A model generated the notes under the pieces. It was not told the origin of the DNA. It saw only the letters and a program-made list of their open reading frames with translations, and searched no databases. Source: an uncultured Methanosarcinales archaeon (GTDB lineage: Archaea > Nanobdellota > Nanobdellia > Woesearchaeales > GW2011-AR9). Taken from it: 64,000 bases of DNA. The DNA is taken from NCBI GenBank assembly GCA_964344235.1, contig CAYFMJ010000002.1:32001-96000 (forward strand), in the 5' to 3' direction. The position numbers and the translations under genes are program-made. This document shows, in pieces, positions 12,526 to 23,838 of the stretch (positions are counted from its first letter, which is position 1; each line of letters begins with the position of its first letter).

Positions 12526-12843
12526 ATGATAACAATGAAAACGGCACCATTTAATAGGTGTATTGAATGTACCGATGTGATTACTAACCCAGTTTGTCCC
12601 GGCTGTCTAGCAAAAGAGATGCAAGTTATGGTTTCTGAGCACAACGAAGCTCTAGCCATGCAAATCACTGCCCCTCACATCCCGGGAGGAGAGACCATGT
12701 GTATCTCCTGTGGTGATTCCATGAACCTGTGTGCGCACTGTTTCAGTAAGGATGTCTACCTCTTCCTTGAACACCATAACGAACAAATTGCTGAAGAGTT
12801 CATGCGCCGTTTCGACTTTGAATTACGACAAGAATTTTATTAA
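12526..12843 (+). CDS. Cys-rich putative zinc-binding protein
   Basis: CIEC, CPGC, CISC, CAHC motifs; GGAGGTGGAT SD before ATG 12526. Confidence 0.75.
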   Translation: MITMKTAPFNRCIECTDVITNPVCPGCLAKEMQVMVSEHNEALAMQITAPHIPGGETMCISCGDSMNLCAHCFSKDVYLFLEHHNEQIAEEFMRRFDFELRQEFY

Positions 12844-14282
12844 CAATTAATACCAATCACGCTGCTAATCTCCTCAGAGGTAAAACACTGCTGCAGCACT
12901 TTACAATATTGCGAATATTCTTTCTCAGGATTCTTAATGAAACCACTCAACACATATTCTGATGGTAACACATACATTCTTTTACTTTTATGTGTTTTCT
13001 CAATGGAACCACACGTTAAACTCTGCACAGTCTTCTGGAATGCCTGCCAACTGTTGAACTTCACACTATAATCAGCTTCAACACCTGTTTCACACTGCTG
13101 CTTTGACCGTAAGATCAAATCGCTCTTGCCGGGAGTTTTCACAACATGATATGATGCACTATTTGGTCCATCCACCGTTTGCACACAGATATGGAACGCA
13201 TCAACTTTGTCATAAAACGCGTTCTTCGTGAGATACGTCCCCAATTCCGCTTTCATAGAACTATGTAATTGCGCTTCTGACTGGAAATACACTGCATGTC
13301 CTGTTGCTCCTTTCAAGATAAAGAACACGCCAACCAACACTAAAATACTGAACCCAGCAATAAACGCTACTTTGTGGATATCTACATCAACCTCAGCACT
13401 ACCGTCAGCCCGAGGGGAACCAGCTTTCTTATATTTCTTATAATTATGCCGCATCGTCTCCTTATACGCCCATTGAACATCATTTGGATGCCAACCTGCT
13501 TTCACTAAATTCGATTTAATATGGGGAAACTTCTTTCCCGCAGCAATGTGTTTTGTAATGTAATTCTTTACCTCTGGATGAACTTTCGGTGAACCTTTAG
13601 ACTTCATTACATACTTAATACCAAAGAACGCTACCATAAACACTAATAGTGCAAACAAACCGACTGTTAAAAATTTTGTAAATGCTCTTTCTTTATCAAC
13701 ATCCTGTTCCACATTCTTCAACTCTGCCTGTGCAGCTTCCACATCTTCTTGCAACCCTGCTAACCCCACTGTGTTCTCTTGTACATCTCCTTCAATCGAA
13801 CCTTGCATTGAGTTTAGTAATTGAATATTGTCGTTAAGATCATTGATTTGCTGCTGCAATACCAAAATGTTACTTTCTGTCTGCATGACTCTACTCTCCA
13901 AATCAGCAGAACTTGCTTCCAGGATACTTACCTCCTCTTGTAATTCATCAATTACTTGTTGATCAACACTTGGTGTTACTTCTGTTACATTTGTGTCATT
14001 AATCTCTTCTCCTCCACCAAAGAAATTTTCAAAAAATAACTCCTCTTCCGTCCCCCCAACAGATTCATCATCAATATCATTAGGATTCTGCCACATACAT
14101 GTCAACGTCTCAACGCCACAATAACAGATTTCATCACTACTTCCCGTAAACACTTCACATGGCAAAGAACAGTCAGCATTACTTGTACACATCTCCTCCA
14201 AATTAATATCTGCACCCAAGACAAACGAACCGCCACCTATAGTAAACAGCAATACAAACAGCACATACACACTTTTTTTCAT
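12840..14282 (-). CDS. Hypothetical multi-TM protein with extracellular Cys-rich and coiled-coil regions
   Basis: Signal peptide, Cys-rich N-terminus, heptad coiled coil, two further TM helices. Confidence 0.8.
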   Translation of the reverse strand: MKKSVYVLFVLLFTIGGGSFVLGADINLEEMCTSNADCSLPCEVFTGSSDEICYCGVETLTCMWQNPNDIDDESVGGTEEELFFENFFGGGEEINDTNVTEVTPSVDQQVIDELQEEVSILEASSADLESRVMQTESNILVLQQQINDLNDNIQLLNSMQGSIEGDVQENTVGLAGLQEDVEAAQAELKNVEQDVDKERAFTKFLTVGLFALLVFMVAFFGIKYVMKSKGSPKVHPEVKNYITKHIAAGKKFPHIKSNLVKAGWHPNDVQWAYKETMRHNYKKYKKAGSPRADGSAEVDVDIHKVAFIAGFSILVLVGVFFILKGATGHAVYFQSEAQLHSSMKAELGTYLTKNAFYDKVDAFHICVQTVDGPNSASYHVVKTPGKSDLILRSKQQCETGVEADYSVKFNSWQAFQKTVQSLTCGSIEKTHKSKRMYVLPSEYVLSGFIKNPEKEYSQYCKVLQQCFTSEEISSVIGINC

Positions 14283-14334: not shown

Positions 14335-14343
14335 TATAATTCC
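14335..14343. repeat. 9-bp target site duplication, left copy (TATAATTCC)
   Basis: Identical to 20187-20195 and abuts the left TIR. Confidence 0.93.
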
Positions 14344-14394
14344 GGCTTTGCACAAACGCTTAGTTCTGCACAAAGAGATTGCATTTTGCACAAA
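14344..14394 (+). repeat. Left TIR plus subterminal TGCACAAA repeats
   Basis: TGCACAAA at 14349-14356, 14367-14374 and 14387-14394. Confidence 0.9.
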
Positions 14395-14488
14395 CAATAT
14401 CTCCCCAAATTAGGGGTTTTTTGGGTGTTTAGTTAACTATGTGTTCCACACAAGAAGTTTTTAAATAATATCAGCCGTAAGATACGTC

Positions 14489-14902
14489 ATGGTTAAAATT
14501 AGGGGGTCAGAGGCTATTAGGAGAATCCGCCAAATACAAAAGAACATTGAAGAGCAGAATAGAAAAGACATAGATGATGAATTAGAACTGCTTGGTCTGA
14601 ACAGAAATGATCCTGACCTAAAAAAAATCGTAGAGAAAATCATTGAGAAAACAGAATCAGAAAGGGCCCTTTTGAAAATACTTAACAAACGTTTTGAGAC
14701 GAATAAAGCAGTCAATATCAAAAGAACATTTGAGATCATAGATCGGATTAGATCTAAGAAAAATTTCTACGTCAATTTAGCATATATCAGGAAACAAGAA
14801 AAAATAAACGGGAGGCTATTACGCCTGAACCGAGATACAATCCGCTTGACTATTTTGGTTTTGTTGTTGATGGCAGTTCAGATATTCTTAATGGTTCGTT
14901 GA
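14489..14902 (+). CDS. Transposon cargo: basic orphan protein with C-terminal TM helix
   Basis: 137 aa, ends TIRLTILVLLLMAVQIFLMVR; TTTTTAAATA box about 22 nt upstream. Confidence 0.7.
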   Translation: MVKIRGSEAIRRIRQIQKNIEEQNRKDIDDELELLGLNRNDPDLKKIVEKIIEKTESERALLKILNKRFETNKAVNIKRTFEIIDRIRSKKNFYVNLAYIRKQEKINGRLLRLNRDTIRLTILVLLLMAVQIFLMVR

Positions 14903-15551
14903 CTCTTACCCATTTACAAAACCCGCACTCTTCAGAGCTCTCTGGCAAACTGCCTTCAAGAACCGCTATCGCCTCTTTGAAGATTTTCTTAGCGTTGTTA
15001 ACATTAACTTTCATTTTTATTAGTTCTGCGTGAAAGTCAACATCGCCATTCTCGTGAACTTTATTTGGATGGTAGAAGAGCAGGTAAGCGTAATCTTCGG
15101 TTTTGTAATCATTTAACTGCAGTAGGTGGTTGTAAATGTCTAACTGATTCTGGTAATGGTCTGCTGTATCCTCTTTTAATGGGTATCCTCTAGTTTTGTA
15201 ATCTAAAACGATGAGTTTGTTGCCTTTCTTTAGAATGTTGTCTACGGCTCCACGAAAGAGGTTTCCTTCTTTGTCCGTCCACTGAATACCTTTGAAATTG
15301 TTTCTCCAAATTGTAAGTAACTCTTCATCATCAAAGAGTTTTACTTCACCATTGAGTTTCTCTAATTCTGGAGGGAGTGTTTCCAACTTCATAAACTTAT
15401 CAAAGTGGTTTTTTAAGATTCTATCTATTCCAGAAGGTAAACTTGGAAAGATTCCGTTAGGCCTACGCAACTTTTTATTATGGTGTAGCCAGAAACAACG
15501 TGGACATTCTTTTAGAAGGCTTAGTGCTGAAGGGGAGAGTTTGTATGCCAT
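14850..15551 (-). CDS. Transposon cargo: PD-(D/E)XK nuclease, Cas4/RecB-like
   Basis: LSPSAL..CPRCFW, GAVDNIL...VLDYKT, QLDIY, C-terminal CGFC. Confidence 0.85.
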   Translation of the reverse strand: MAYKLSPSALSLLKECPRCFWLHHNKKLRRPNGIFPSLPSGIDRILKNHFDKFMKLETLPPELEKLNGEVKLFDDEELLTIWRNNFKGIQWTDKEGNLFRGAVDNILKKGNKLIVLDYKTRGYPLKEDTADHYQNQLDIYNHLLQLNDYKTEDYAYLLFYHPNKVHENGDVDFHAELIKMKVNVNNAKKIFKEAIAVLEGSLPESSEECGFCKWVRVNEPLRISELPSTTKPK

Positions 15552-15552
15552 T

Positions 15553-16497
15553 TTAGTTTAGGGATTTTGAATAAGGTAATGATTTAATATAATTCCTCAT
15601 AAAAATCCAATCTGGCCTGCCATCTTTATCGACAGGCAACATTATTTTACTCTTTGACATCCTATCAAATCTCCATTTACGGCCGTAATTAAACCGATAT
15701 TTTTCTTTACCAATTAAAGGGATTAAGAACATCGAGATATATACATCTAGATGCCCATCTTTGATTCTTAAAATGTTTACATCATGAGAACAAGTAAATT
15801 CTTCTGGTTGATAGAATGCAGCACCAGCATGGCCATTGTTAACTACTGTTAAACAATTCCCCTTGAAGACTTTTTCTACAATCGATTTGTCAAGATAATC
15901 TGTAACGCCATTGTTATAAACGGATGCTGAGATGAATTTCAATTCCCCCTCCTTAGTTGGCCTTTTATTATAAAATCCTCTTTCAATTGCGAATACCTCA
16001 CCATACAAGAAATACTTCCACTTTCTACTTGATAAATTTGTTTTTTCGTTTAATAACCTTGCATTAAGATTCCTTCGGACAAATTTTTTCTTTTTATAGA
16101 CCCACGAGGGCATATTAATCTCAACCAATGTTCTCCCAAGCCTACTAGGTGTAACCTTTCTACCATAGCTATATCTAAAAACTTCCCTTCTTATTAAAAG
16201 GACAAAATACATCATCTCCTCCCTTGAAAATTTCCTTTTTGGTGAAAGAACAATGCTATCACTATTTATACAACAACCCCTCTCTTGTAAGAATGCATAA
16301 CAAACCGTTCCAGTCCTGGGTACATTAATGACATTTCTATAGGTTGGTTCAATATCTACATAACCCACAACTCCATTATCGGTTCCTTTTGATGAGATAA
16401 GTGGAGTTTTCCCTCTATCAACAGTATCTCTTACTAAGAGGTTGTCTTTTCCATACTCCATATCAAACAATTCACGTAGTTCAATCAACTTCCTCAC
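15553..16497 (-). CDS. Transposon cargo: R-M specificity subunit (BcgI B-like, two TRDs)
   Basis: Two HsdS-like repeats (PLISSKGTDNGV / FISASVYNNGV; FRYSYGRK / YRFNYGRK; KIMLPVDKDGRPDWIFMRNYIK). Confidence 0.88.
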   Translation of the reverse strand: MRKLIELRELFDMEYGKDNLLVRDTVDRGKTPLISSKGTDNGVVGYVDIEPTYRNVINVPRTGTVCYAFLQERGCCINSDSIVLSPKRKFSREEMMYFVLLIRREVFRYSYGRKVTPSRLGRTLVEINMPSWVYKKKKFVRRNLNARLLNEKTNLSSRKWKYFLYGEVFAIERGFYNKRPTKEGELKFISASVYNNGVTDYLDKSIVEKVFKGNCLTVVNNGHAGAAFYQPEEFTCSHDVNILRIKDGHLDVYISMFLIPLIGKEKYRFNYGRKWRFDRMSKSKIMLPVDKDGRPDWIFMRNYIKSLPYSKSLN

Positions 16498-18364
16498 CCA
16501 ATTCTTTGAATAACAAATATTTTTTCATCTCTCTCTCAAAATCACTTATCTTAATTGATGAGAAATCTGATTCTAAATACGCTTCTGGAACTAATTCCAA
16601 TAACTCGTCATCTGGGTCTAATTCTGTGGAAATTTTAAATTCTGGGACTGCCTTAACTTGATGATTATTGTTGGACATAAAGGCTTTTAATTCATCTTTA
16701 ATCTCAAGAAGCCTATTACTTTCTTGTTTGTCAAAAATTCTTTTCCCCTTTCTTTTTATGAAACCATCTGTATTAGCCTTTGCAAAATAAACCTTCTGGT
16801 TTATAAAATCATGAGGTACACCTTTTTTTATAAACATCCCAACAGTATGGACACCAACAGGGTAAAATAACTCCTCTGGGAGAGTCAATACACTTACAAG
16901 GGAGTTTTTTCTTAATAATTCTCTCCTCCATTGCTTACCACCAGACTCAATAAGGACGGATATTGGAACAATTGCAAAAAGATGCCCACCGTCTTGCATT
17001 TGCTCAAGCGCATAGTCTATGAAATGACTCTCTTTTTCATCAGATTTTTTTAATGCAAACGGGGGATTCATAAGAACTTTAGTTATGATGGGACTTTCAT
17101 TTTTATTTCCCTCCCTTCTTTTAAATTCTCCTGTTGGAAAACCTTTCTTTTGAGTGTATACTATATTCTTCTGAAAGCAATTCCCTTCACTGATATTGTT
17201 TTTTCCATCCCCTCGAAAAATCATATTAACTAGCGATAGTGAAACCACTTCATCATCTTGTTCTATTCCAAAAACATTATAATTTTTGAATTTGTCTAGC
17301 TGTTTATCATTGCTAGAGTTTTTCACATAATCAAAAGCAGACACTAAAAAACCACCTGTTCCACAGGTTGGGTCAAAAACATAATCATTGTGTTTTATAT
17401 CAAGGACATCCACCGCAAATTTGGTTATATGTCTTGGGGTAAGGACTATGCCAATCTCTTTTGCACCATTACCATATTTTAAAAATTTTTCATAAAACTT
17501 TCCGAGGACATCATTACCAGATGCCATAGCATTCTTTATATCCAAGGTCTGGAGTTCTTTTAGTGTGTTTATTATTGCTCTTCTATACTTAATATGGTTC
17601 TCTTTGCTTGGAGGCACTTCTAGTTTTATAAAATCAAAAAAACTTTCTTTATTTACTTCCTCTAACTTTGTTTTAATGAGATTATTGATATTATCAACAA
17701 GAAGTTTTGTTTTAGATGTCCTTAAACTTATCTCTTCATTTAGAGACAAAGATAAAACAAGCCCAGCTATAAACCTCGCTCTTTTATTTTTGTTTATCCC
17801 TGCGTTGTGTAATATCTCATTTATTCTCTCAGCTGATGCCAAGTATTTTTCTTCAGGAAAATCAGGAAATTCTTTCCAATTAGGTGTTTTATTTGATAGT
17901 AAGTATTCTGCTTGCTCCCTTGATAATAATGTATCTTTTGGTTTTCCATTGAATAACACTGTTTCCCATTTGCCATCGTGAAGGAATTGGTTGATTATTG
18001 TATAACCATCAGTGTCATTTCCAGCTAACCCTGTTATTATCAGGCATTTAATTTTCTTACTTTTATTTATCTTCTTGGCATATTGGTTTTTTGCTTCATC
18101 CAATGCTTCATTAATATCCTTTTTGTCCCTTTTGCTCTCTATTACCCAATATTCAGAATCATTCAAACACACAACGGCTTCAGGCATATCTCTACCTAGA
18201 ACTTGTTTAATATTTTCATTGTACAAACATTCGTTCTGTTTGTAAACCTCTCCCTCTGGGACCCTGGCAGGATTTTTTACTACCCAACCTAATTCTTCTA
18301 ACTCCTCTTTAATATAAGCATATGCATCAACCTCTGAATTTTTAGGTTTTTTTGAATGAACCAT
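16481..18364 (-). CDS. Transposon cargo: fused endonuclease / N6-adenine methyltransferase (Type IIB, BcgI A-like)
   Basis: N-terminal PE...IESK nuclease motif, GIVLTPRHI, motif I VFDPTCGTGGFL, motif IV NPPF; 627 aa next to a 314-aa S subunit. Confidence 0.88.
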   Translation of the reverse strand: MVHSKKPKNSEVDAYAYIKEELEELGWVVKNPARVPEGEVYKQNECLYNENIKQVLGRDMPEAVVCLNDSEYWVIESKRDKKDINEALDEAKNQYAKKINKSKKIKCLIITGLAGNDTDGYTIINQFLHDGKWETVLFNGKPKDTLLSREQAEYLLSNKTPNWKEFPDFPEEKYLASAERINEILHNAGINKNKRARFIAGLVLSLSLNEEISLRTSKTKLLVDNINNLIKTKLEEVNKESFFDFIKLEVPPSKENHIKYRRAIINTLKELQTLDIKNAMASGNDVLGKFYEKFLKYGNGAKEIGIVLTPRHITKFAVDVLDIKHNDYVFDPTCGTGGFLVSAFDYVKNSSNDKQLDKFKNYNVFGIEQDDEVVSLSLVNMIFRGDGKNNISEGNCFQKNIVYTQKKGFPTGEFKRREGNKNESPIITKVLMNPPFALKKSDEKESHFIDYALEQMQDGGHLFAIVPISVLIESGGKQWRRELLRKNSLVSVLTLPEELFYPVGVHTVGMFIKKGVPHDFINQKVYFAKANTDGFIKRKGKRIFDKQESNRLLEIKDELKAFMSNNNHQVKAVPEFKISTELDPDDELLELVPEAYLESDFSSIKISDFEREMKKYLLFKELGEEVD

Positions 18365-18452
18365 CTATCTTTTCCTCTTTTTTGTTTTCTTTTTTGGAGC
18401 AGAGAATATTTTGGCATAGTTAAGGCTCCACTTAACTGATTTGCCTCTAGGC

Positions 18453-18656
18453 TTACTTCTTGTTTTTGTAGCTTTCTTCTTCACCATGTTTAATCAAAAT
18501 CTCTTCTTTGTATAATTTATCAAGATACTTTTTAACTGTTACATAACTTATTCCAGTATACTTAGATATTTCATGAGCAGTCATAAAACCGCCGTGTTTA
18601 TGAATCGCCCTGATTATTTCTCTCTCTTTATCTTTAAGTATCGGTTTGCTCGTCAT
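18453..18656 (-). CDS. Transposon cargo: small winged HTH regulator
   Basis: MTAHEISKYTGISYVTVKKYLDKL. Confidence 0.82.
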   Translation of the reverse strand: MTSKPILKDKEREIIRAIHKHGGFMTAHEISKYTGISYVTVKKYLDKLYKEEILIKHGEEESYKNKK

Positions 18657-18885
18657 CTACCACCTCAGCGAAAAGACGAGGAACCATCTCGCCATGCTCA
18701 CTTTTGTCTAACTCAACTCTAAATCGCATTATTTCATCGCCAGTTAGTCTTGCTCGTTCGGCGATCCTTTTTGGGATTTTAACCGAGAACTGCCCCGTGT
18801 TTTTGTGAAGCGTAACTTTTGCAGTCAACTCAGAACCTTGTTCTCCTTCGATTATTTCTCTAACTTCTTCGATTACCTTTCTCAT
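18634..18885 (-). CDS. Transposon cargo: AbrB/SpoVT-like DNA-binding protein
   Basis: AKVTLHKNTGQFSVKIPKRIAERARLTGDEIMRF. Confidence 0.75.
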   Translation of the reverse strand: MRKVIEEVREIIEGEQGSELTAKVTLHKNTGQFSVKIPKRIAERARLTGDEIMRFRVELDKSEHGEMVPRLFAEVVDDEQTDT

Positions 18886-18919
18886 TGGAACTAAATATTA
18901 ATCTTTATTTCATAATAAA

Positions 18920-19020
18920 TAGTCTATTGATTTATATAATTATCGTTATTTTCATCATAATTAGACTAATTATTGGTAATTTTTAGAAAGTTTTAAATAA
19001 AAGTGACAATAAATAGACTA
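18920..19020. promoter_or_regulatory. Three palindromic TAGWCTA operator candidates in the divergent promoter region
   Basis: TAGTCTA 18920-18926, TAGACTA 18962-18968 (inside AATTAGACTAATT), TAGACTA 19014-19020; spacing 42 and 52 bp. Confidence 0.6.
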
Positions 19021-19103
19021 AATATTGTAAAATGAAACTTGCGAGGTTGATATTATGGATGTTGTTACTGCTACTGCACGCACGGTTAGCTGGAGGATGA
19101 TGT

Positions 19104-20165
19104 GTGTTACAAAAGAGAAAAACCGAGATGTGGAAAAGAGGTCGTTTAGGAGAACGACAAATGGAACTACGGGAATTCAACAAGAAAGTCAAACAGCTCA
19201 CCTACCCTCAAAATTGGGAAGCATACAATCGAGCCAAAACGCAGGAGAAAATCCTCGCTGAACGATTACTCTCAGAATTGCTAGAAGCGACAGCTAACAT
19301 CAAGCCAGCAAGAAAAGGCGACCAGTACGCTTCTGTGAAAGATAAAATATTCTGTATGTTCGTTTACAACTTTTCTGGACTTAGCTCAAGACGTTGTATG
19401 TCTGATGTTAAGATCGCCCACCAGAGGGGTTTAATCGCAAGGACACCACACTTTAACTCAATCTTGAACTATTTTGCCGATCCCAACACAACTCCCATTA
19501 TCAAGAAGTTAATCACTCTCACGGCGTTGCCATTACGAAACGTGGAGAAAGACTTCGCTGTTGACTCTTCGGGTTTCTCAACATCTCTCTTCGACAGATG
19601 GGTAGATTACAGGACGCAGAAAGTAACAAGAAGAAGACATTGGAAGAAATGCCACATCACAGTCGGAGTTAAGAGTAATGTGATCACTGCTGTAAAAATA
19701 ACATCTGGCAGTTCCCCTGACTGTTCAGAATTCATAGAACTGGTAAGGGAAACGAGGGGGTTCTTTGACGTTGAAGAAGTTTCGGCGGACAAAGCATATT
19801 CAAGTAAATCAAATCTCGAAGCGGTCTCCCAACTTGGAGCGATTCCGTATGTGCCTTTCAAGAAAAACACAACAGGAAAAGCAAGAGGTTCTTACACATG
19901 GAGTCGAATGTATGATTACTTCCTTAACAACAGAGAACGATTCGATCAATCATATCACAAACGGTCAAACGTTGAAACAGCTTTCCACATGATCAAGCGG
20001 AAGTTTGGAAATAATCTCAGAACAAAGAAAGATATTTCTCATGTCAATGAAATTTTGATGAAGTGCTTGTGCCACAATCTTTCGGTTTTGGTTCAGGAGT
20101 CGTTTGAACTTGGGCTAGAAATTGATTTTTCTCATTGTGCAGAAATCTATGCTGCACAGACGTAG
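19104..20165 (+). CDS. IS5 family DDE transposase (IS903-like)
   Basis: FAVDSSGFS, WKKCHITVG, SADKAYSS, YHKRSNVETAFHMIKRKFG; GTG start with GGAGGATGA SD. Confidence 0.93.
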   Translation: MLQKRKTEMWKRGRLGERQMELREFNKKVKQLTYPQNWEAYNRAKTQEKILAERLLSELLEATANIKPARKGDQYASVKDKIFCMFVYNFSGLSSRRCMSDVKIAHQRGLIARTPHFNSILNYFADPNTTPIIKKLITLTALPLRNVEKDFAVDSSGFSTSLFDRWVDYRTQKVTRRRHWKKCHITVGVKSNVITAVKITSGSSPDCSEFIELVRETRGFFDVEEVSADKAYSSKSNLEAVSQLGAIPYVPFKKNTTGKARGSYTWSRMYDYFLNNRERFDQSYHKRSNVETAFHMIKRKFGNNLRTKKDISHVNEILMKCLCHNLSVLVQESFELGLEIDFSHCAEIYAAQT

Positions 20166-20186
20166 GGTTATCATTTGTGCAAAGCC
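20134..20186 (-). repeat. Right TIR plus subterminal TGCACA copies
   Basis: TTTGTGCAAAGCC at 20174-20186; ATTGTGCA at 20134-20141; TGCACAGA at 20153-20160. Confidence 0.88.
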
Positions 20187-20195
20187 TATAATTCC
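20187..20195. repeat. 9-bp target site duplication, right copy (TATAATTCC)
   Basis: Identical to 14335-14343 and abuts the right TIR. Confidence 0.93.
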
Positions 20196-20247
20196 CTTTC
20201 CTCATGTAGTCGTAATCTTTATATAACTCTCTGCAATCCTGCCTTCC

Positions 20248-21543
20248 ATGCTAGCGATCCAATTTATTCGTGATAATCCTAAAATTGTAAAAGCCTCCGA
20301 GAAGAAAAGGGGTCGTGATCCTAAGCGAATTGACCAACTTCTCACATTAGACGAGGAATGGCGTTCTCTTAAACAGAAGGTAGAAAAACTTCGCCACACA
20401 CGTAACACTGTTTCCGAACAAATCAACAAAGCGAAAAAAGCGAAGAAAGAGAAAGAAGCGCAACAAAAAATTACTAAGATGCGCTCTGTAATCGCTGATA
20501 TGAAGAAACAGGAAGAAAAATTTGCGAAAGTAGAACTGGAACGTAACACTCTGCTGGCGAGCATTGGTAACATTCTTCAAAAAACAGTTCCCAAAGGCAA
20601 AGATGATTCTGACAATGTTGAATTAAAAAAGGTTGGTAAGAAACCGAAATTTACGTTTCCCCTTAAAGACCACATTGAGTTAGGAGAATCACTTGATTTA
20701 ATTGATTTAGAAACAGCAGCGAAAAATTCTGGTTCCCGTTTCTACTATCTCAAGAACGAAGCAGTGCTTCTAAGCCAAGCTCTCCAGAGATTTGCAATCG
20801 ACCTTCTTCTCAAGAAAGGCTTTACCCTCATCAAAACACCATTCATGCTCAACCGTGCAGCTCTTGCGGGCGGAGTAAACTTAACCGACTTTGAAGATAC
20901 TATTTACAAAATTGAGGGGGAAGATCTTTACCTCATTGCAACCTCTGAACATTCCCTTGTTGCATTAAAGCGTAACCAAGTTCTTGAAGCCTCAGAACTA
21001 CCAATGAAAATCGTTGGTGTCAGTACTTGCTTTAGAAAAGAATTAGGTGCACACGGTCGAGATGACAAAGGAATCTTTCGTGTCCACGAATTCAACAAAG
21101 TAGAAGAAATCATTTATTGTAAACCAGAGAATTCAGAGAAATACTTCAACGAATTGCAAAAACTCTCTGAAGATATTTTCAAAAAGCTTGGTCTTCCGTA
21201 TCGGGTAGTTAACATCTGTACGGGGGATTTAGGAAATAAACAATCATTACAGTATGATATTGAAGTGTGGTTCCCAGGACAGAATGAAAAGAAAGGAGCG
21301 TATCGAGAAGTAACCTCTTGCAGCAACTGCTTAGACTATCAGTCAGTTTCTCTTAACACAAAATACACAACCAAAGACGGCAAGCGAGAGTATGTTCATC
21401 TTCTTAACAATACCGCTTTAACTGACACCAGGCCAATTGCTGCTATTCTCGAAAATTACCAGCAGAAAGATGGTTCCGTGAAAATTCCGAAAGCCCTCTG
21501 GCCGTATATGAATGGGATTAAAGTAATCAAACCAACAAAATGA
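20248..21543 (+). CDS. serS: Serine--tRNA ligase (bacterial/eukaryal type)
   Basis: N-terminal coiled coil, LIATSEH, FRKELGAHGRDDKGIFRVHEFNKVE, EVTSCSNC, HLLNNT, ENYQQKDG. Confidence 0.97.
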   Translation: MLAIQFIRDNPKIVKASEKKRGRDPKRIDQLLTLDEEWRSLKQKVEKLRHTRNTVSEQINKAKKAKKEKEAQQKITKMRSVIADMKKQEEKFAKVELERNTLLASIGNILQKTVPKGKDDSDNVELKKVGKKPKFTFPLKDHIELGESLDLIDLETAAKNSGSRFYYLKNEAVLLSQALQRFAIDLLLKKGFTLIKTPFMLNRAALAGGVNLTDFEDTIYKIEGEDLYLIATSEHSLVALKRNQVLEASELPMKIVGVSTCFRKELGAHGRDDKGIFRVHEFNKVEEIIYCKPENSEKYFNELQKLSEDIFKKLGLPYRVVNICTGDLGNKQSLQYDIEVWFPGQNEKKGAYREVTSCSNCLDYQSVSLNTKYTTKDGKREYVHLLNNTALTDTRPIAAILENYQQKDGSVKIPKALWPYMNGIKVIKPTK

Positions 21544-21605: not shown

Positions 21606-22718
21606 ATGTTTAAGAGCCTCCTCGCAACATTACTCGCTGGGGGGATAGCAGCAACAACATTTCTGAGTGATGGAGCACCACTACAACTGGCAGCAGCGTA
21701 TCATCAACCGTATACTGCAAGTATTCTCAGTCCACTTTCTGTTGAATCGGTCCCACCTCCTGCCGCACTTACAACCTCCTCTATAACCACCACTCCACCT
21801 CCAACCCTGCCTCGGAAAGCTCTCTCATACTGCACAACCACTCGGAGAATTCATCACTATCCTTCTGAAAGTGTCATTGACAGTACGGGATGTCCCCAAT
21901 GGTGGAACCTTTTAGCGGAAGAATCTGAAATTCGTGAGCTTGACCGTGGTTGTGGTAGAATGGAAGACCTACGGGAAGATCTTTATCATCGTCTCGGCAG
22001 GTCGTGTGACTCTCCTGTCCTACGAGAACTAAGAACAAAAGCTCCTTCACCTGACTTTGTTATTTACTTTTTACAAAACATGTATGATGATAACCACCGT
22101 GATGGTGCAAAACCAAGTCCATTTGCTCCACCTGCTGCAGTTATAGAGATTCACAACGCTCTTGATGATCAACCAACATTCCGCCGGCGAGATATCCTGA
22201 ATATACTCTGTGATGATTACGCTGCCACTTCAAAACCTCCAGAAGGCAAAGAAGATGTTTGTCTTTCATTACAACAAGCATATCCTGATGATTTTGAGGT
22301 AATAGTAGAAGATCCCTCAGAAAGTCTTTTCTGCTCTATGCTTGAACCCGTCTTCAATTTTCTTGATTGGCGGCCCCCGTTTTTACATCCAATGCCCTCC
22401 GTAGACCTCTCGGAAGAATTTCCAGGCATCTTTCCTCCTGGTGAAGCGGGTGTTAGTTTAAGGACCTATAAAATAATTACTACTCCCCTAAATGTGACTT
22501 ACCACAAAGATGACATTGAAATGGTTGCTGAGGATTTAGTTCATGTTATTCGCTCAACTGTTCCTGCTGGTAAAGATGTTCTTGCTTATGGTCTAGAATT
22601 GAAATCTCAGTTTGGTGAACTTTTCACTCTTCCACCAGGCACAGTAGAACTTGTTACCAATAAGCTAGTTGGCTATGACCCTTTGTCCAGGACATTTGCT
22701 ATTGATAATATTGATTAA
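21606..22718 (+). CDS. Hypothetical secreted protein (orphan)
   Basis: Signal peptide, Pro/Thr-rich linker, own TATA box at about 21576-21583. Confidence 0.75.
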   Translation: MFKSLLATLLAGGIAATTFLSDGAPLQLAAAYHQPYTASILSPLSVESVPPPAALTTSSITTTPPPTLPRKALSYCTTTRRIHHYPSESVIDSTGCPQWWNLLAEESEIRELDRGCGRMEDLREDLYHRLGRSCDSPVLRELRTKAPSPDFVIYFLQNMYDDNHRDGAKPSPFAPPAAVIEIHNALDDQPTFRRRDILNILCDDYAATSKPPEGKEDVCLSLQQAYPDDFEVIVEDPSESLFCSMLEPVFNFLDWRPPFLHPMPSVDLSEEFPGIFPPGEAGVSLRTYKIITTPLNVTYHKDDIEMVAEDLVHVIRSTVPAGKDVLAYGLELKSQFGELFTLPPGTVELVTNKLVGYDPLSRTFAIDNID

Positions 22719-22770
22719 CTGCCCTTTTACCCCCAAAATCCTTATAAACACCTTTCTCTCTCATCATGAG

Positions 22771-23838
22771 ATGTCCTTATTCAAAGATATGCTCCATGCC
22801 AACGAATCGTTGTTCAGAGACACCATCTTTCTCAGCTACGATTTTCAACCAAAAATCCTCCATGGCCGGGAAAATGAACAACAACGCTTTGCTGTAGCTA
22901 TCCGCCCTTTATTACAAGGCCACAATGGCAGAAATGTCTTCGTCTATGGAGCCCCAGGTATTGGAAAAACTACTGCCTGTAAACATGTCCTCCGGGAATT
23001 GGAAGATGAAACTGATGACGTCATTCCTTTATACATCAACTGTTGGAAAGAAAATACAACCTATAAAATCTTCTACAAAATCTGTGAACAACTTGGTTAC
23101 AAATTTATTCAGAGTAAAAAAACCACAGAACTCTTTGCGTTAATCGCACAGAAACTGAACAAAGTAAGTGCCGTCTTCGTTTTTGATGAAATCGACAAAT
23201 TAGAAGATACAGACTTCCTCTACACGATCTTGGAAGACATTTACAGAAAATCAATTATTCTTATTACAAATTACAGAGACAGCTATTCCGAAATGGATGA
23301 ACGCATTCGTAGTAGATTAAATCCAGAATTCCTTTGCTTTCGAGCGTATAACGAATCAGAAGTTGCAGAAATTCTCAAGCAACGAAAAGAATATGCTTTC
23401 GTACCTACTGCCTGGGATGATGCCGCGTTTAAAGAAATTGTTGAGAAATGTACGGAAACAAACGACGTGCGTGTTGGTTTGTATATGATGCGGGAAGCAG
23501 GGAACGTAGCTGAGGATAAAAGTTCTAGAACCATCAACGCAGAGCACGTTGCGGAAGCTGTCAAGAAAGTGCAAAATTTTCATATCAAACCGAAGGATGG
23601 ATTGGATGAGGAGTTACAATCAATTCTTGACCTTGTTAAAGCCCACACTGGTAAGAAAATTGGTGATATGTATAGTGAGTATCAACAAACTGGCGGTCAG
23701 TTAAGTTACAAAAGTTTCCATAGAAGAGTTATGAAATTACAAGATGGCCGCTTCGTTTCGTCAGAAAAAGTTACGGGAAAAGACGGCAATACAACACTTG
23801 TCCATTACGCAAGTACAAAAAAATTAACAGATTTCTAA
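22771..23838 (+). CDS. cdc6: Orc1/Cdc6 family replication initiator
   Basis: HGRENEQ, Walker A GAPGIGKT, YINCW, Walker B VFDEIDKL; start ATG 22771. Confidence 0.93.
   Translation: MSLFKDMLHANESLFRDTIFLSYDFQPKILHGRENEQQRFAVAIRPLLQGHNGRNVFVYGAPGIGKTTACKHVLRELEDETDDVIPLYINCWKENTTYKIFYKICEQLGYKFIQSKKTTELFALIAQKLNKVSAVFVFDEIDKLEDTDFLYTILEDIYRKSIILITNYRDSYSEMDERIRSRLNPEFLCFRAYNESEVAEILKQRKEYAFVPTAWDDAAFKEIVEKCTETNDVRVGLYMMREAGNVAEDKSSRTINAEHVAEAVKKVQNFHIKPKDGLDEELQSILDLVKAHTGKKIGDMYSEYQQTGGQLSYKSFHRRVMKLQDGRFVSSEKVTGKDGNTTLVHYASTKKLTDF

What the first reader, a model, noticed from the sequence alone, without database searches (positions are those of the whole stretch)
14335..20195. Intact IS903-like unit transposon that carries a complete defence cassette
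One IS5-family transposase sits against the right end, while the matching left TIR lies about 4.7 kb upstream of it. The TIRs are 13-bp perfect repeats starting GGCTTTG and the TSD is 9 bp, both hallmarks of the IS903 group. There is no second IS copy, so this is not a composite transposon. The cargo is a Type IIB R-M pair, a Cas4-like nuclease, two regulators and an orphan membrane protein. The perfect TIRs and TSD and intact ORFs suggest recent activity. It landed between two divergent promoters (14282 gene and serS) and left both TATA boxes intact. Passenger-carrying IS are known mainly from other families (IS1595, IS481, IS66, ISL3). An IS5 element mobilising a whole R-M system in a DPANN archaeon is, to my knowledge, undescribed. 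R-M could act as an addiction module that stabilises the element.
Basis: partly seen in the sequence, partly recalled or inferred. Interest (0 to 1): 0.92.

Follow-up and report, generated by a model that had tools for sequence, protein, structure and literature searches.

The report
IS903-like transposon carrying restriction-modification genes
A 5.8-kb jumping gene in a tiny (DPANN-type) archaeon uses one IS903-like transposase to carry a whole DNA-restriction defence system, and it belongs to a large family of such cargo-carrying transposons in archaea and bacteria for which I found no published description.

Summary
Window 14344-20186 (5,843 bp) is bounded by perfect 13-bp inverted repeats (GGCTTTGCACAAA) and a perfect 9-bp duplication (TATAATTCC). 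It holds one intact IS5-family DDE transposase and six cargo ORFs. Five of them form an operon on the opposite strand: small ORF, wHTH, fused nuclease-methylase, specificity subunit, Cas4-like nuclease.

The element is an insertion. In eight related genera the two flanking genes (a 480-aa gene and serS) are adjacent and divergent, 70-300 bp apart. Removing the element restores 113 bp. Two separately assembled samples give identical junctions.

The design is common. Of 79 loci with related transposases (39-52% identity), 47 plus two same-order genomes show GGCTTTG-type ends with a perfect 9-bp duplication and lengths of 1.4-10 kb. Only one lacks cargo. Cargo is rich in R-M genes, mainly in archaeal elements. 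Nine of 48 abut another family member at exactly 9 bp.

The transposase is a distant relative of IS903: 22% identity, same best HMM (below cut-off), same end tip and duplication length.

Transposition activity, restriction activity and an addiction role are all untested. I found no published description. Verdict: a real unit transposon, a new variant of a known kind.

The parts
14335..14343 (.). Left copy of the 9-bp target-site duplication, TATAATTCC
   Evidence: Read. Identical to 20187-20195 and found as a pair by script.
14344..14356 (+). Left terminal inverted repeat, GGCTTTGCACAAA (13/13 with the right end)
   Evidence: The tip GGCTTTG is shared with IS903 and is 89-100% conserved over 96 ends of related elements.
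14349..14393 (+). Three direct subterminal TGCACAA repeats (14349, 14367, 14387), likely extra transposase-binding sites
   Evidence: 3 of the 8 plus-strand copies in 64 kb lie in the first 50 bp of the element. The binding function is inferred.
14489..14902 (+). orf137: charged, probably coiled-coil protein with a hydrophobic C-terminal tail; no known family
   Evidence: Searches gave no family. Translation. No homolog among the cargo of 47 related elements.
14850..15551 (-). Cas4-like PD-(D/E)XK (RecB-type) nuclease, 233 aa; last gene of the cargo operon
   Evidence: PDDEXK_1 1.2e-12. PADLOC Cas4 6e-10. TIGR00372 27.6 bits, below the cut-off of 65. D104, D117-x-K119, a QxxxY motif and four Cys (C16, C19, C208, C211) are read.
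15553..16497 (-). Specificity (S/B) subunit of the type IIB R-M system, 314 aa
   Evidence: Methylase_S 5e-19. PADLOC Specificity_II 2.9e-26 over residues 8-305.
16481..18364 (-). Fused restriction endonuclease-methyltransferase (A subunit), 627 aa
   Evidence: N6_Mtase 2.6e-33. PADLOC REase_MTase_IIG 5e-49. Motifs P61-E62...E76-x-K78, DPTCGTGGF at 331 and NPPF at 433. Foldseek matches type IIB BsaXI 8w2p_A at E 1.6e-15 over 631 columns, plus BpuSI and DrdV. N-terminal pLDDT is only 50-62.
18453..18656 (-). Winged-helix DNA-binding protein, 67 aa; candidate controller of the R-M operon
   Evidence: HTH_24 6e-5 and many wHTH families. Homologs occur in two other elements. The control role is inferred.
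18634..18885 (-). orf83, first gene of the cargo operon; family unknown
Evidence: No Pfam, NCBIfam, PADLOC or PDB match.
18886..19103 (.). Divergent control region between the cargo operon and the transposase gene, with three TAGWCTA-centred repeats (18920, 18962, 19014)
   Evidence: 3 of the 7 sites in 64 kb lie in this 218-bp spacer. Inverted and direct repeats I2 and D17. An operator function is inferred.
19104..20165 (+). IS5-family (IS903-related) DDE transposase, 353 aa (345 aa from the ATG at 19128)
   Evidence: DDE_Tnp_1 6e-21. NF033579 126.6 bits, cut-off 140. D154, D229, E291 and Y284-R287-E291-K298 are invariant in alignment A1. 22% identity to an IS903-type transposase, E 1e-8.
20135..20186 (-). 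Right end: terminal inverted repeat 20174-20186 plus an inner TTGTGCA copy at 20135
20187..20195 (.). Right copy of the 9-bp target-site duplication, TATAATTCC
12840..14282 (-). Left flanking host gene (480 aa, unknown function); adjacent to serS in relatives
   Evidence: homologs sit 70-300 bp from serS, divergently oriented, in 8 related genera.
20248..21543 (+). Right flanking host gene, seryl-tRNA synthetase

Best explanation
Window 14344-20186 is a non-composite (unit) transposon, a 'transporter IS'. Its single DDE transposase is a distant relative of IS903.

Proposed mechanism: the transposase binds the GGCTTTG-tipped ends, and probably the TGCACAA subterminal repeats. It then inserts the whole 5.8-kb unit with a 9-bp staggered cut of the target.

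The element landed in the 113-bp spacer between a 480-aa gene and serS. Between its left end and the transposase promoter it carries a divergently transcribed five-gene operon:
- orf83
- a wHTH protein
- a type IIB restriction-methylase
- its specificity subunit
- a Cas4-like nuclease

It also carries a small tail-anchored ORF. The cargo most likely gives the host restriction-based defence, and the wHTH protein and the TAGWCTA repeats probably control its expression.

Shown: the ends, the duplication, the insertion relative to relatives, the gene families and intact catalytic motifs, and the family-wide design. Inferred: present mobility, cut-and-paste chemistry, restriction activity, regulation and any stabilising effect.
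For: Ends and insertion:
- Perfect 13-bp TIR plus perfect 9-bp TSD.
- A single transposase copy in the genome.
- DDE and YREK residues intact.
- A synteny-level empty site in 8 related genera.
- Identical junctions in contigs assembled separately from runs ERR2281800 and ERR2281804.

Family evidence:
- The two same-order genomes whose ends could be resolved hold homologous transposases inside 8,208-bp and 7,270-bp elements. Both have GGCTTTG/GGCGTTG ends, perfect 9-bp TSDs and R-M cargo.
- 47 of 79 further loci show the same TIR/TSD signature, with lengths of 1.4-10 kb.
- Among 131 cargo ORFs there are 22 DNA methyltransferase hits, 7 S subunits and several REases.
- A Micrarchaeota element carries a 46%-identical RM/S pair in the same layout.

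IS903 kinship:
- Same best HMM.
- Same end tip.
- 9-bp duplication (PMC12670165).

R-M cargo.
Against: - No second copy of this element exists in the genome, and none was found at another site in the collections searched. No near-identical pair was found among relatives. Movement of a whole unit has not been seen directly.
- No true empty site at nucleotide level was found.
- Read-level evidence could not be obtained.
- The transposase scores below the curated cut-off of the IS903-type model (126.6 against 140 bits).
- The nuclease domain of the RM protein rests on a motif and a low-confidence fold (pLDDT 50-62).
Confidence: 0.9

Rival explanations
1. Origin by fusion. The unit arose when an IS-like member and a second, cargo-bearing family member sat in tandem at the same 9-bp target. 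The outer ends were then used together and the inner ends decayed. This concerns how the cargo was acquired and is compatible with the best explanation.
For: 9 of 48 resolved relatives abut another family end at exactly 9 bp. Arrays of two or three elements share one spacer, and each element has its own transposase. One array contains the only cargo-less 1,423-bp form (L100).
Against: No relic of inner ends was found in the window element: no further match to the TIR with up to 2 mismatches, and no GGCTTTG in 18886-19103. In archaeal relatives the cargo always lies between the left end and the transposase, which a simple capture upstream of the transposase gene would also give.
Confidence: 0.3
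2. Immobile relic. The element inserted once and is now fixed, kept by the host for its R-M system. The transposase is no longer active on ends 5.8 kb apart.
For: It is single copy. It has the same site and 100% identical sequence in four sequencing runs of one project. No other insertion site was found.
Against: The TIR and TSD are perfect, all seven ORFs are open and the catalytic residues are intact. About 48 relatives keep perfect 9-bp TSDs at lengths up to 10 kb, so length as such does not prevent insertion.
Confidence: 0.3
3. Coincidence. An ordinary ~1.1-kb IS inserted beside a pre-existing R-M island, and the distant 'left end' is a chance match.
For: None beyond the fact that canonical IS903-group elements are about 1.05 kb.
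Against: The 13-bp inverted match with a directly abutting 9-bp direct repeat has a chance expectation of about 4e-9. No end-like sequence lies upstream of the transposase gene. Relatives lack any R-M genes between the two flanking genes. The same long-range architecture recurs in about 48 loci.
Confidence: 0.01
4. Assembly chimera. The junctions are artefacts of metagenome binning or assembly.
For: The genome is a 37-contig metagenome-assembled genome. One short contig (L110) stops 17 bp before the right end.
Against: A 70-kb contig and an 8.7-kb contig from two different runs span both junctions with 100% identity over 6,901 bp. The TSD logic would not arise from a chimera.
Confidence: 0.01

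Closest known systems
IS903 / IS102 / IS602 (IS903 group, IS5 family)
   Same: DDE_Tnp_1 transposase with DDE and Y-2-R-3-E-6-K residues. Same best NCBIfam model, NF033579 (IS903-type 350 bits, this clade 105-143 bits). The end tip is GGCTTTG; some relatives even have GGCTTTGTTGAAT against IS903's GGCTTTGTTGAATAAATCG. The target duplication is 9 bp (PMC12670165).
   Different: Only 22% identity over the catalytic core, and the N-terminal third does not align by BLASTP. The element is 5,843 bp with six passenger ORFs, against 1,057 bp with one ORF. It has subterminal repeats. IS903-group elements are known to move genes as composite transposons with two IS copies (Tn903, Tn602, TnaphA1; PMC12670165), not as single-transposase units.
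Transporter IS (tIS) / unit transposons with passenger genes, described for families such as IS1595, IS66, ISL3, IS481 (own knowledge of the ISfinder literature)
   Same: One transposase gene and passenger genes inside a single pair of TIRs, flanked by a TSD.
   Different: The transposase family is different. Here cargo is the rule across a clade of hundreds of sequence clusters (47 of the 48 distinct resolved elements; 703 clusters at E<=1e-30), and in archaea the cargo is mostly R-M genes. I found no paper describing an IS5/IS903-type tIS with R-M cargo.
Transposon-like R-M units of Furuta, Abe and Kobayashi 2010 (PMC2853133)
   Same: R-M genes, including a type IIG RM plus S-homolog pair likened there to BcgI, are flanked by inverted repeats and a short target duplication. 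An empty site in a relative shows insertion.
   Different: Those units have 26-65-bp IRs, 8-bp duplications and no transposase gene. The authors could not say what moves them. The present element encodes its own transposase.
Tn7-like transposons with defence cargo (own knowledge: Benler et al. 2021, mBio; not read here)
   Same: Transposons that act as vehicles for defence systems. Their repeated use of one target site gives stacked elements.
   Different: Tn7-like elements use TnsA/B/C plus target selectors, have 5-bp duplications and are tens of kilobases long. Here there is a single small DDE transposase, a 9-bp duplication and a length of 2.4-10 kb.
BcgI / BsaXI type IIB restriction-modification enzymes
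   Same: The A subunit has an N-terminal PD-ExK nuclease motif and a gamma-class N6-adenine methylase (NPPF), and there is a separate S-like subunit. The fold matches BsaXI.
   Different: Sequence identity is low (18% to BsaXI in the fold alignment). The A subunit is shorter (627 against about 915 aa in BsaXI). The recognition site and two-sided cleavage are untested.

Membership tests
IS5 family, IS903 group | DDE_Tnp_1 transposase with the DDE triad and the Y-2-R-3-E-6-K signature | tested here: met
   Pfam 6.3e-21. D154, D229, E291, Y284, R287 and K298 are invariant in A1.
IS5 family, IS903 group | Transposase passes the curated model that IS903 itself matches (NF033579, cut-off 140 bits) | tested here: not met
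   It is the best model for both, but the window protein scores 126.6 bits against 350 for an IS903-type protein. Relatives score 105-143. BLASTP gives 22% identity, E 1e-8. It is a sister or divergent branch, not a close member.
IS5 family, IS903 group | Terminal inverted repeats beginning GGC(TTTG) | tested here: met
   The IS903-type copy in pLVPK begins GGCTTTGTTGAATAAATCG.
IS5 family, IS903 group | 9-bp target-site duplication | tested here: met
   TATAATTCC on both sides. The 9 bp for IS903 is taken from PMC12670165. The pLVPK copy I fetched has no intact TSD.
IS5 family, IS903 group | About 1.05 kb, transposase as the only ORF | tested here: not met
   5,843 bp with six passenger ORFs.
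Unit (non-composite) transposon / transporter IS | One transposase gene and passenger genes within one TIR pair, flanked by a TSD | tested here: met
Composite transposon | Two IS copies bracketing the cargo | tested here: not met
   One transposase match in the genome. Only two TIR copies in the window.
Type IIB R-M (BcgI/BsaXI-like) | A subunit fusing a PD-(D/E)XK nuclease to a gamma-class N6A methyltransferase | tested here: met
   Methylase motifs DPTCGTGGF and NPPF. The P-E...E-x-K motif is conserved in 7 of 8 homologs. PADLOC REase_MTase_IIG 5e-49. Foldseek BsaXI E 1.6e-15. The nuclease part is modelled at low confidence.
Type IIB R-M (BcgI/BsaXI-like) | Separate type-I-like specificity subunit encoded next to it | tested here: met
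   Overlapping downstream gene. Specificity_II 2.9e-26 and Methylase_S 5e-19.
Type IIB R-M (BcgI/BsaXI-like) | Cleaves on both sides of a bipartite recognition site | not testable with these tools
   Needs enzyme assay or methylome data.
Cas4 (CRISPR adaptation nuclease) | Passes the Cas4 equivalog model; RecB motifs plus Fe-S cysteines | tested here: not met
   TIGR00372 scores 27.6 bits against a cut-off of 65. RecB-type motifs and four Cys are present, but arranged CxxC...CxxC. It is filed as Cas4-like only.
Cas4 (CRISPR adaptation nuclease) | Encoded with cas1/cas2 or a CRISPR array | tested here: not met
   Its neighbours are R-M genes within the transposon. In 7 relatives it stands in varied non-CRISPR contexts. 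Genome-wide cas genes were not searched.

The most novel reading that the evidence does not exclude
The element is one member of a very large clade of IS903-related transposases (about 700 clusters at 50% identity at E<=1e-30) that I could not find described anywhere. The normal form in this clade is a 2.4-10 kb cargo-carrying unit transposon, not a bare IS. In DPANN and other archaea (and one candidate-phylum bacterium) these transposons act as a main vehicle for complete R-M systems. New copies insert into the very 9 bp next to a resident copy, which builds tandem arrays that can fuse into larger cargo units and seed defence islands.
Probability: 0.5. Interest if true: 0.8.

Novelty: new variant of a known kind. 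Interest (0 to 1): 0.72.

Why it matters
**Mobility of R-M systems.** R-M systems are known to be mobile, but the vehicle is usually unclear. Here a small, single-protein transposase with clean ends and a clean duplication carries whole R-M systems. It does so repeatedly, in lineages (DPANN archaea) whose mobile elements are barely charted.

**How IS903-type transposases are viewed.** The result extends the IS903-type transposase, a textbook bare IS, to a clade where cargo is the rule.

**Practical use.** The sharply defined ends (GGCTTTG plus a 9-bp TSD) give a simple computational handle to delimit accessory and defence cargo in metagenome-assembled genomes.

**Growth of cargo regions.** The tandem same-target arrays suggest a mechanism for the stepwise growth of cargo regions.

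**Possible tools.** A compact transposase that moves up to 10 kb might also be of use as a genetic tool for archaea.

Tried and rejected
- **Sequencing runs.** No read-level test for empty sites, circles or chimeras could be made, and read laying was not used.
- **Metagenome scans.** Exact-match scans for the reconstructed empty site (27-mer) and for the 32-nt left end both found nothing.
- **Exact-protein look-ups.** The 353-aa transposase (GTG start) is not on record. The 345-aa form is, but only at this same site. The best representative relative, P0004, sits on a 1.8-kb contig with no DNA available.
- **Multi-copy evidence.** All-against-all blastn of 48 elements, and of same-genome pairs including the two Limnoglobus roseus loci, found no near-identical copies at different sites.
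No support from Pfam at E<=1 or from PDB sequences.
- **Cas4-like gene as a host gene captured from a fixed ancestral locus.** Its neighbourhoods in 7 relatives share no synteny, so no ancestral site can be named.
- **IS903 control copy.** The copy from pLVPK has no intact TSD, so the 9-bp rule for IS903 is cited from a paper and was not re-observed.
- **Literature.** Eight searches found no description of IS5/IS903-type unit transposons with R-M cargo. The project accession PRJEB17505 is not mentioned in the library.
- **Tree.** Only the quick IQ-TREE result was obtained; the careful search did not finish.

Full report
**1. Observation**

Reading the sequence confirms the finding to the base. 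GGCTTTGCACAAA lies at 14344-14356 and its exact reverse complement at 20174-20186. These are the only two exact copies in the window. TATAATTCC abuts both ends on the outside (14335-14343 and 20187-20195). Beyond base 13 the two ends diverge. This 22-base configuration is far beyond chance, and a script that searches for a 9-bp repeat plus at least 10/13 inverted ends around the transposase gene returns only this pair. The element is 5,843 bp long.

**2. Gene content**

ORFs are; families are.

Plus strand:
- orf137 (14489-14902). It has no known family, is charged, and has a hydrophobic C-terminal tail.
- The transposase (19104-20165). It ends 21 bp from the right end.

Minus strand, tightly packed or overlapping, so probably one operon:
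- orf83 (18885-18634).
- A 67-aa winged-helix protein (18656-18453).
- A 627-aa protein with an N6-adenine methylase domain (18364-16481).
- A 314-aa specificity subunit (16497-15553).
- A 233-aa PD-(D/E)XK nuclease that is Cas4-like (15551-14850).

The 218-bp divergent spacer (18886-19103) holds three of the window's seven TAGWCTA sites. The left end holds three of the eight plus-strand TGCACAA copies within 50 bp, and the right end has two copies of the complement.

**3. Transposase**

The protein matches DDE_Tnp_1. Its best NCBIfam model is NF033579 at 126.6 bits, below the cut-off of 140. D154, D229 and E291, and the Y284-R287-E291-K298 signature, are invariant in an alignment with two relatives.

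As a control I fetched an IS903-type copy from plasmid pLVPK. It is 1,057 bp with ends GGCTTTGTTGAATAAATCG. Its transposase hits the same model at 350 bits. It is 22% identical to the window protein over the catalytic core (E 1e-8). IS903 is 1,057 bp, makes a 9-bp duplication, and its group is known to form composite transposons (PMC12670165).

The window element therefore shares the end tip, the duplication length and the catalytic core with the IS903 group. It is a distant branch, and it fails the 'one ORF, about 1 kb' criterion.

**4. It is an insertion, not an artefact**

In eight related genera of the same family, the homolog of the 480-aa left-flank gene and serS lie next to each other. 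They are divergently oriented and 70-300 bp apart, with nothing between them. In the window genome they are 5,965 bp apart. Removing the element and one TSD copy leaves 113 bp.

This was read from the sequence only.

Contigs assembled separately from runs ERR2281800 (70 kb) and ERR2281804 (8.7 kb) span both junctions and are 100% identical over 6,901 bp. The genome holds only one copy of the transposase and one of the Cas4-like gene.

**5. The same design elsewhere**

Three same-order genomes have transposases 41-43% identical to this one. In two of them the ends could be resolved:
- G030: an 8,208-bp element with ends GGCTTTGTGTAA and TSD GGTGAGATA. It carries a 664-aa N6 methylase fusion plus an S subunit.
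- G032: a 7,270-bp element with TSD TGCGTAACC. It carries an Eco57I-like type IIG enzyme and, directly downstream of the transposase, a homolog of the Cas4-like nuclease.

The third (G028) lies on a cut contig.

A scan of one genome per species found 195 relatives, of which 79 loci were fetched. The automated end search found a GGCTTTG-type TIR pair with a perfect 9-bp TSD in 47 of them. One of these (L083) is the G032 element again. Most of the remaining loci are cut by contig ends.

Counting the window and G030, there are 48 distinct resolved elements:
- Lengths run from 1,423 to 10,154 bp. The median is about 5.5 kb in archaeal-labelled loci and 4.0 kb in bacterial-labelled ones.
- Only one element lacks cargo.
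- Positions 1-7 of the ends are 89-100% conserved over 96 ends.

Hosts include Woesearchaeota, Micrarchaeota, Aenigmatarchaeota, Iainarchaeota, Hadarchaeota, Acidobacteriota, Dehalococcoidia, Myxococcota and the cultured planctomycete Limnoglobus roseus.

An exhaustive profile-free search gives 703 sequence clusters (50% identity) at E<=1e-30.

**6. Cargo census**

I scanned 131 cargo ORFs of at least 110 aa from 47 elements against Pfam:

| Family | Hits |
|---|---|
| N6_Mtase | 11 |
| C5 DNA_methylase | 7 |
| Methylase_S | 7 |
| Eco57I | 5 |
| N6_N4_Mtase | 3 |
| HSDR_N | 2 |
| D12 methylase | 1 |
| RE_NgoPII | 1 |
| RE_HindVP | 1 |
| Vsr | 1 |

Items typical of defence islands also appear (Peptidase_M78 with HTH_3, DUF3800, Nmad2).

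PADLOC adds restriction enzymes that Pfam misses. One Woesearchaeota element with perfect 13/13 ends carries HindVP REase, a C5 methylase, a Dam-type methylase and a ParB-like protein.

A motif scan puts methylases in 14 of 24 archaeal-labelled elements against 2 of 24 bacterial-labelled ones. Pfam and phmmer add at least three more archaeal ones.

In a quick tree, the window transposase sits in a supported 12-member clade (SH-aLRT 97) of DPANN archaea plus one candidate-phylum bacterium. Ten of those 12 members carry R-M genes. The IS903-type protein is a very long outgroup branch (quick search only).

**7. The R-M pair**

Evidence for the 627-aa protein:
- It carries methylase motifs DPTCGTGGF (331) and NPPF (433).
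- Its N-terminal P61-E62...E76-x-K78 motif is conserved in 7 of 8 homologs from other elements.
- PADLOC calls it REase_MTase_IIG (5e-49) and calls the neighbour Specificity_II (2.9e-26).
- An AlphaFold model (mean pLDDT 69; N-terminal domain only 50-62) has the alpha-beta-beta-beta-alpha-beta order expected of PD-(D/E)XK nucleases.
- The model matches the type IIB enzyme BsaXI over 631 columns (E 1.6e-15), as well as BpuSI, DrdV and type I M subunits.

This supports 'BcgI/BsaXI-like type IIB'. Cleavage itself is untested.

The closest homolog among cargo is in a Micrarchaeota element (46% identity, same gene order), although the two transposases are only about 42% identical.

**8. The Cas4-like nuclease**

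The nuclease has RecB-type motifs and four cysteines arranged CxxC...CxxC. It fails the Cas4 equivalog cut-off.

Homologs of 67-70% identity occur in at least seven related genomes. Each sits in a different, non-syntenic neighbourhood without a transposase or R-M genes, and in one case it lies just downstream of serS. That identity is about the same as for serS itself (63-71%).

Its role in the element is open. It may be a further defence or repair nuclease co-transcribed with the R-M genes.

**9. Mechanism**

Most likely the transposase binds the ends, makes 9-bp staggered cuts and inserts the entire unit.

Cargo always lies between the left end and the transposase promoter in archaeal members. 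The passengers are therefore transcribed away from the transposase gene, from a shared control region.

The idea that the R-M system stabilises the element by post-segregational killing is not tested. From general knowledge it is less straightforward when R and M sit on one polypeptide.

**10. Novelty**

Cargo-carrying IS elements and mobile R-M systems are both known. Furuta et al. 2010 (PMC2853133) described R-M units with inverted repeats and 8-bp duplications but no transposase.

I found no paper describing IS5/IS903-type unit transposons with R-M cargo, in archaea or in bacteria. The library does not cover ISfinder entries or subscription journals, so prior naming of single members cannot be excluded.

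Earlier notes of this scan on this same stretch read it the same way. I did not find it noted on other DNA.

**11. Limits**

- No direct evidence of present mobility was obtained.
- The taxonomic label (Woesearchaeota-like DPANN) rests on earlier AI notes and on the labels of the nearest transposase hosts. It was not tested here.
- MAG labels and binning of the related loci are taken as deposited.

Noticed in passing
L057, L065, L100, L080, L035, L040, L064, L096, L074 (loci): Tandem arrays. In 9 of 48 resolved relatives an element abuts another family end at exactly 9 bp. In L057, L065 and L100, two or three elements, each with its own transposase in either orientation, are separated by the same 9-mer. 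This implies repeated insertion into the same 9-bp target next to a resident copy.
   Followed up: partly
L057, L065 (left flanks); L061, L062, L076, L084 (right flanks): Acidobacteriota members sit in a shared palindromic context, TACATATTAT-N9-ATAATATGTA. This suggests a strong site preference or a landing-pad sequence in that branch. The window element's target shows no such palindrome.
   Followed up: no
L100:9705-11127: This is the only cargo-less form found (1,423 bp, transposase only). It lies in the middle of a three-element array.
   Followed up: no
L035 (Candidatus Dojkabacteria, CPR bacterium) and L036 (Woesearchaeota): The transposase regions are 81% identical at DNA level over 975 bp, and the two are sisters in the tree inside the DPANN clade. 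This is either bacterium-archaeon transfer between ultra-small cells or a binning error.
   Followed up: no
window 14850-15551; L022, L120-L125: The Cas4-like nuclease gene is about as conserved among related genera as serS (67-70% aa identity). Yet it sits in a different neighbourhood in each genome. The only copy in this genome is inside the transposon.
   Followed up: partly
L023:8616-9851 (G032 transposase): It carries an extra N-terminal insertion with a CxC...CxH pattern (SWIM-like zinc finger) that the window protein lacks. Many family members are 400-460 aa, against 345-353 aa here.
   Followed up: no
window 22669-23838: Two genes downstream of serS lies a 387-389-aa AAA/Cdc6_lid (Orc1/Cdc6-like) gene that also has NB-ARC/NACHT-type Pfam hits on record.
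   Followed up: no
window 20166-20247: The transposase gene reads toward serS on the same strand, with only 82 bp and no obvious T-rich terminator between them. IS903-group elements are reported to carry outward promoters (PMC3281130). Read-through into serS is possible.
   Followed up: no
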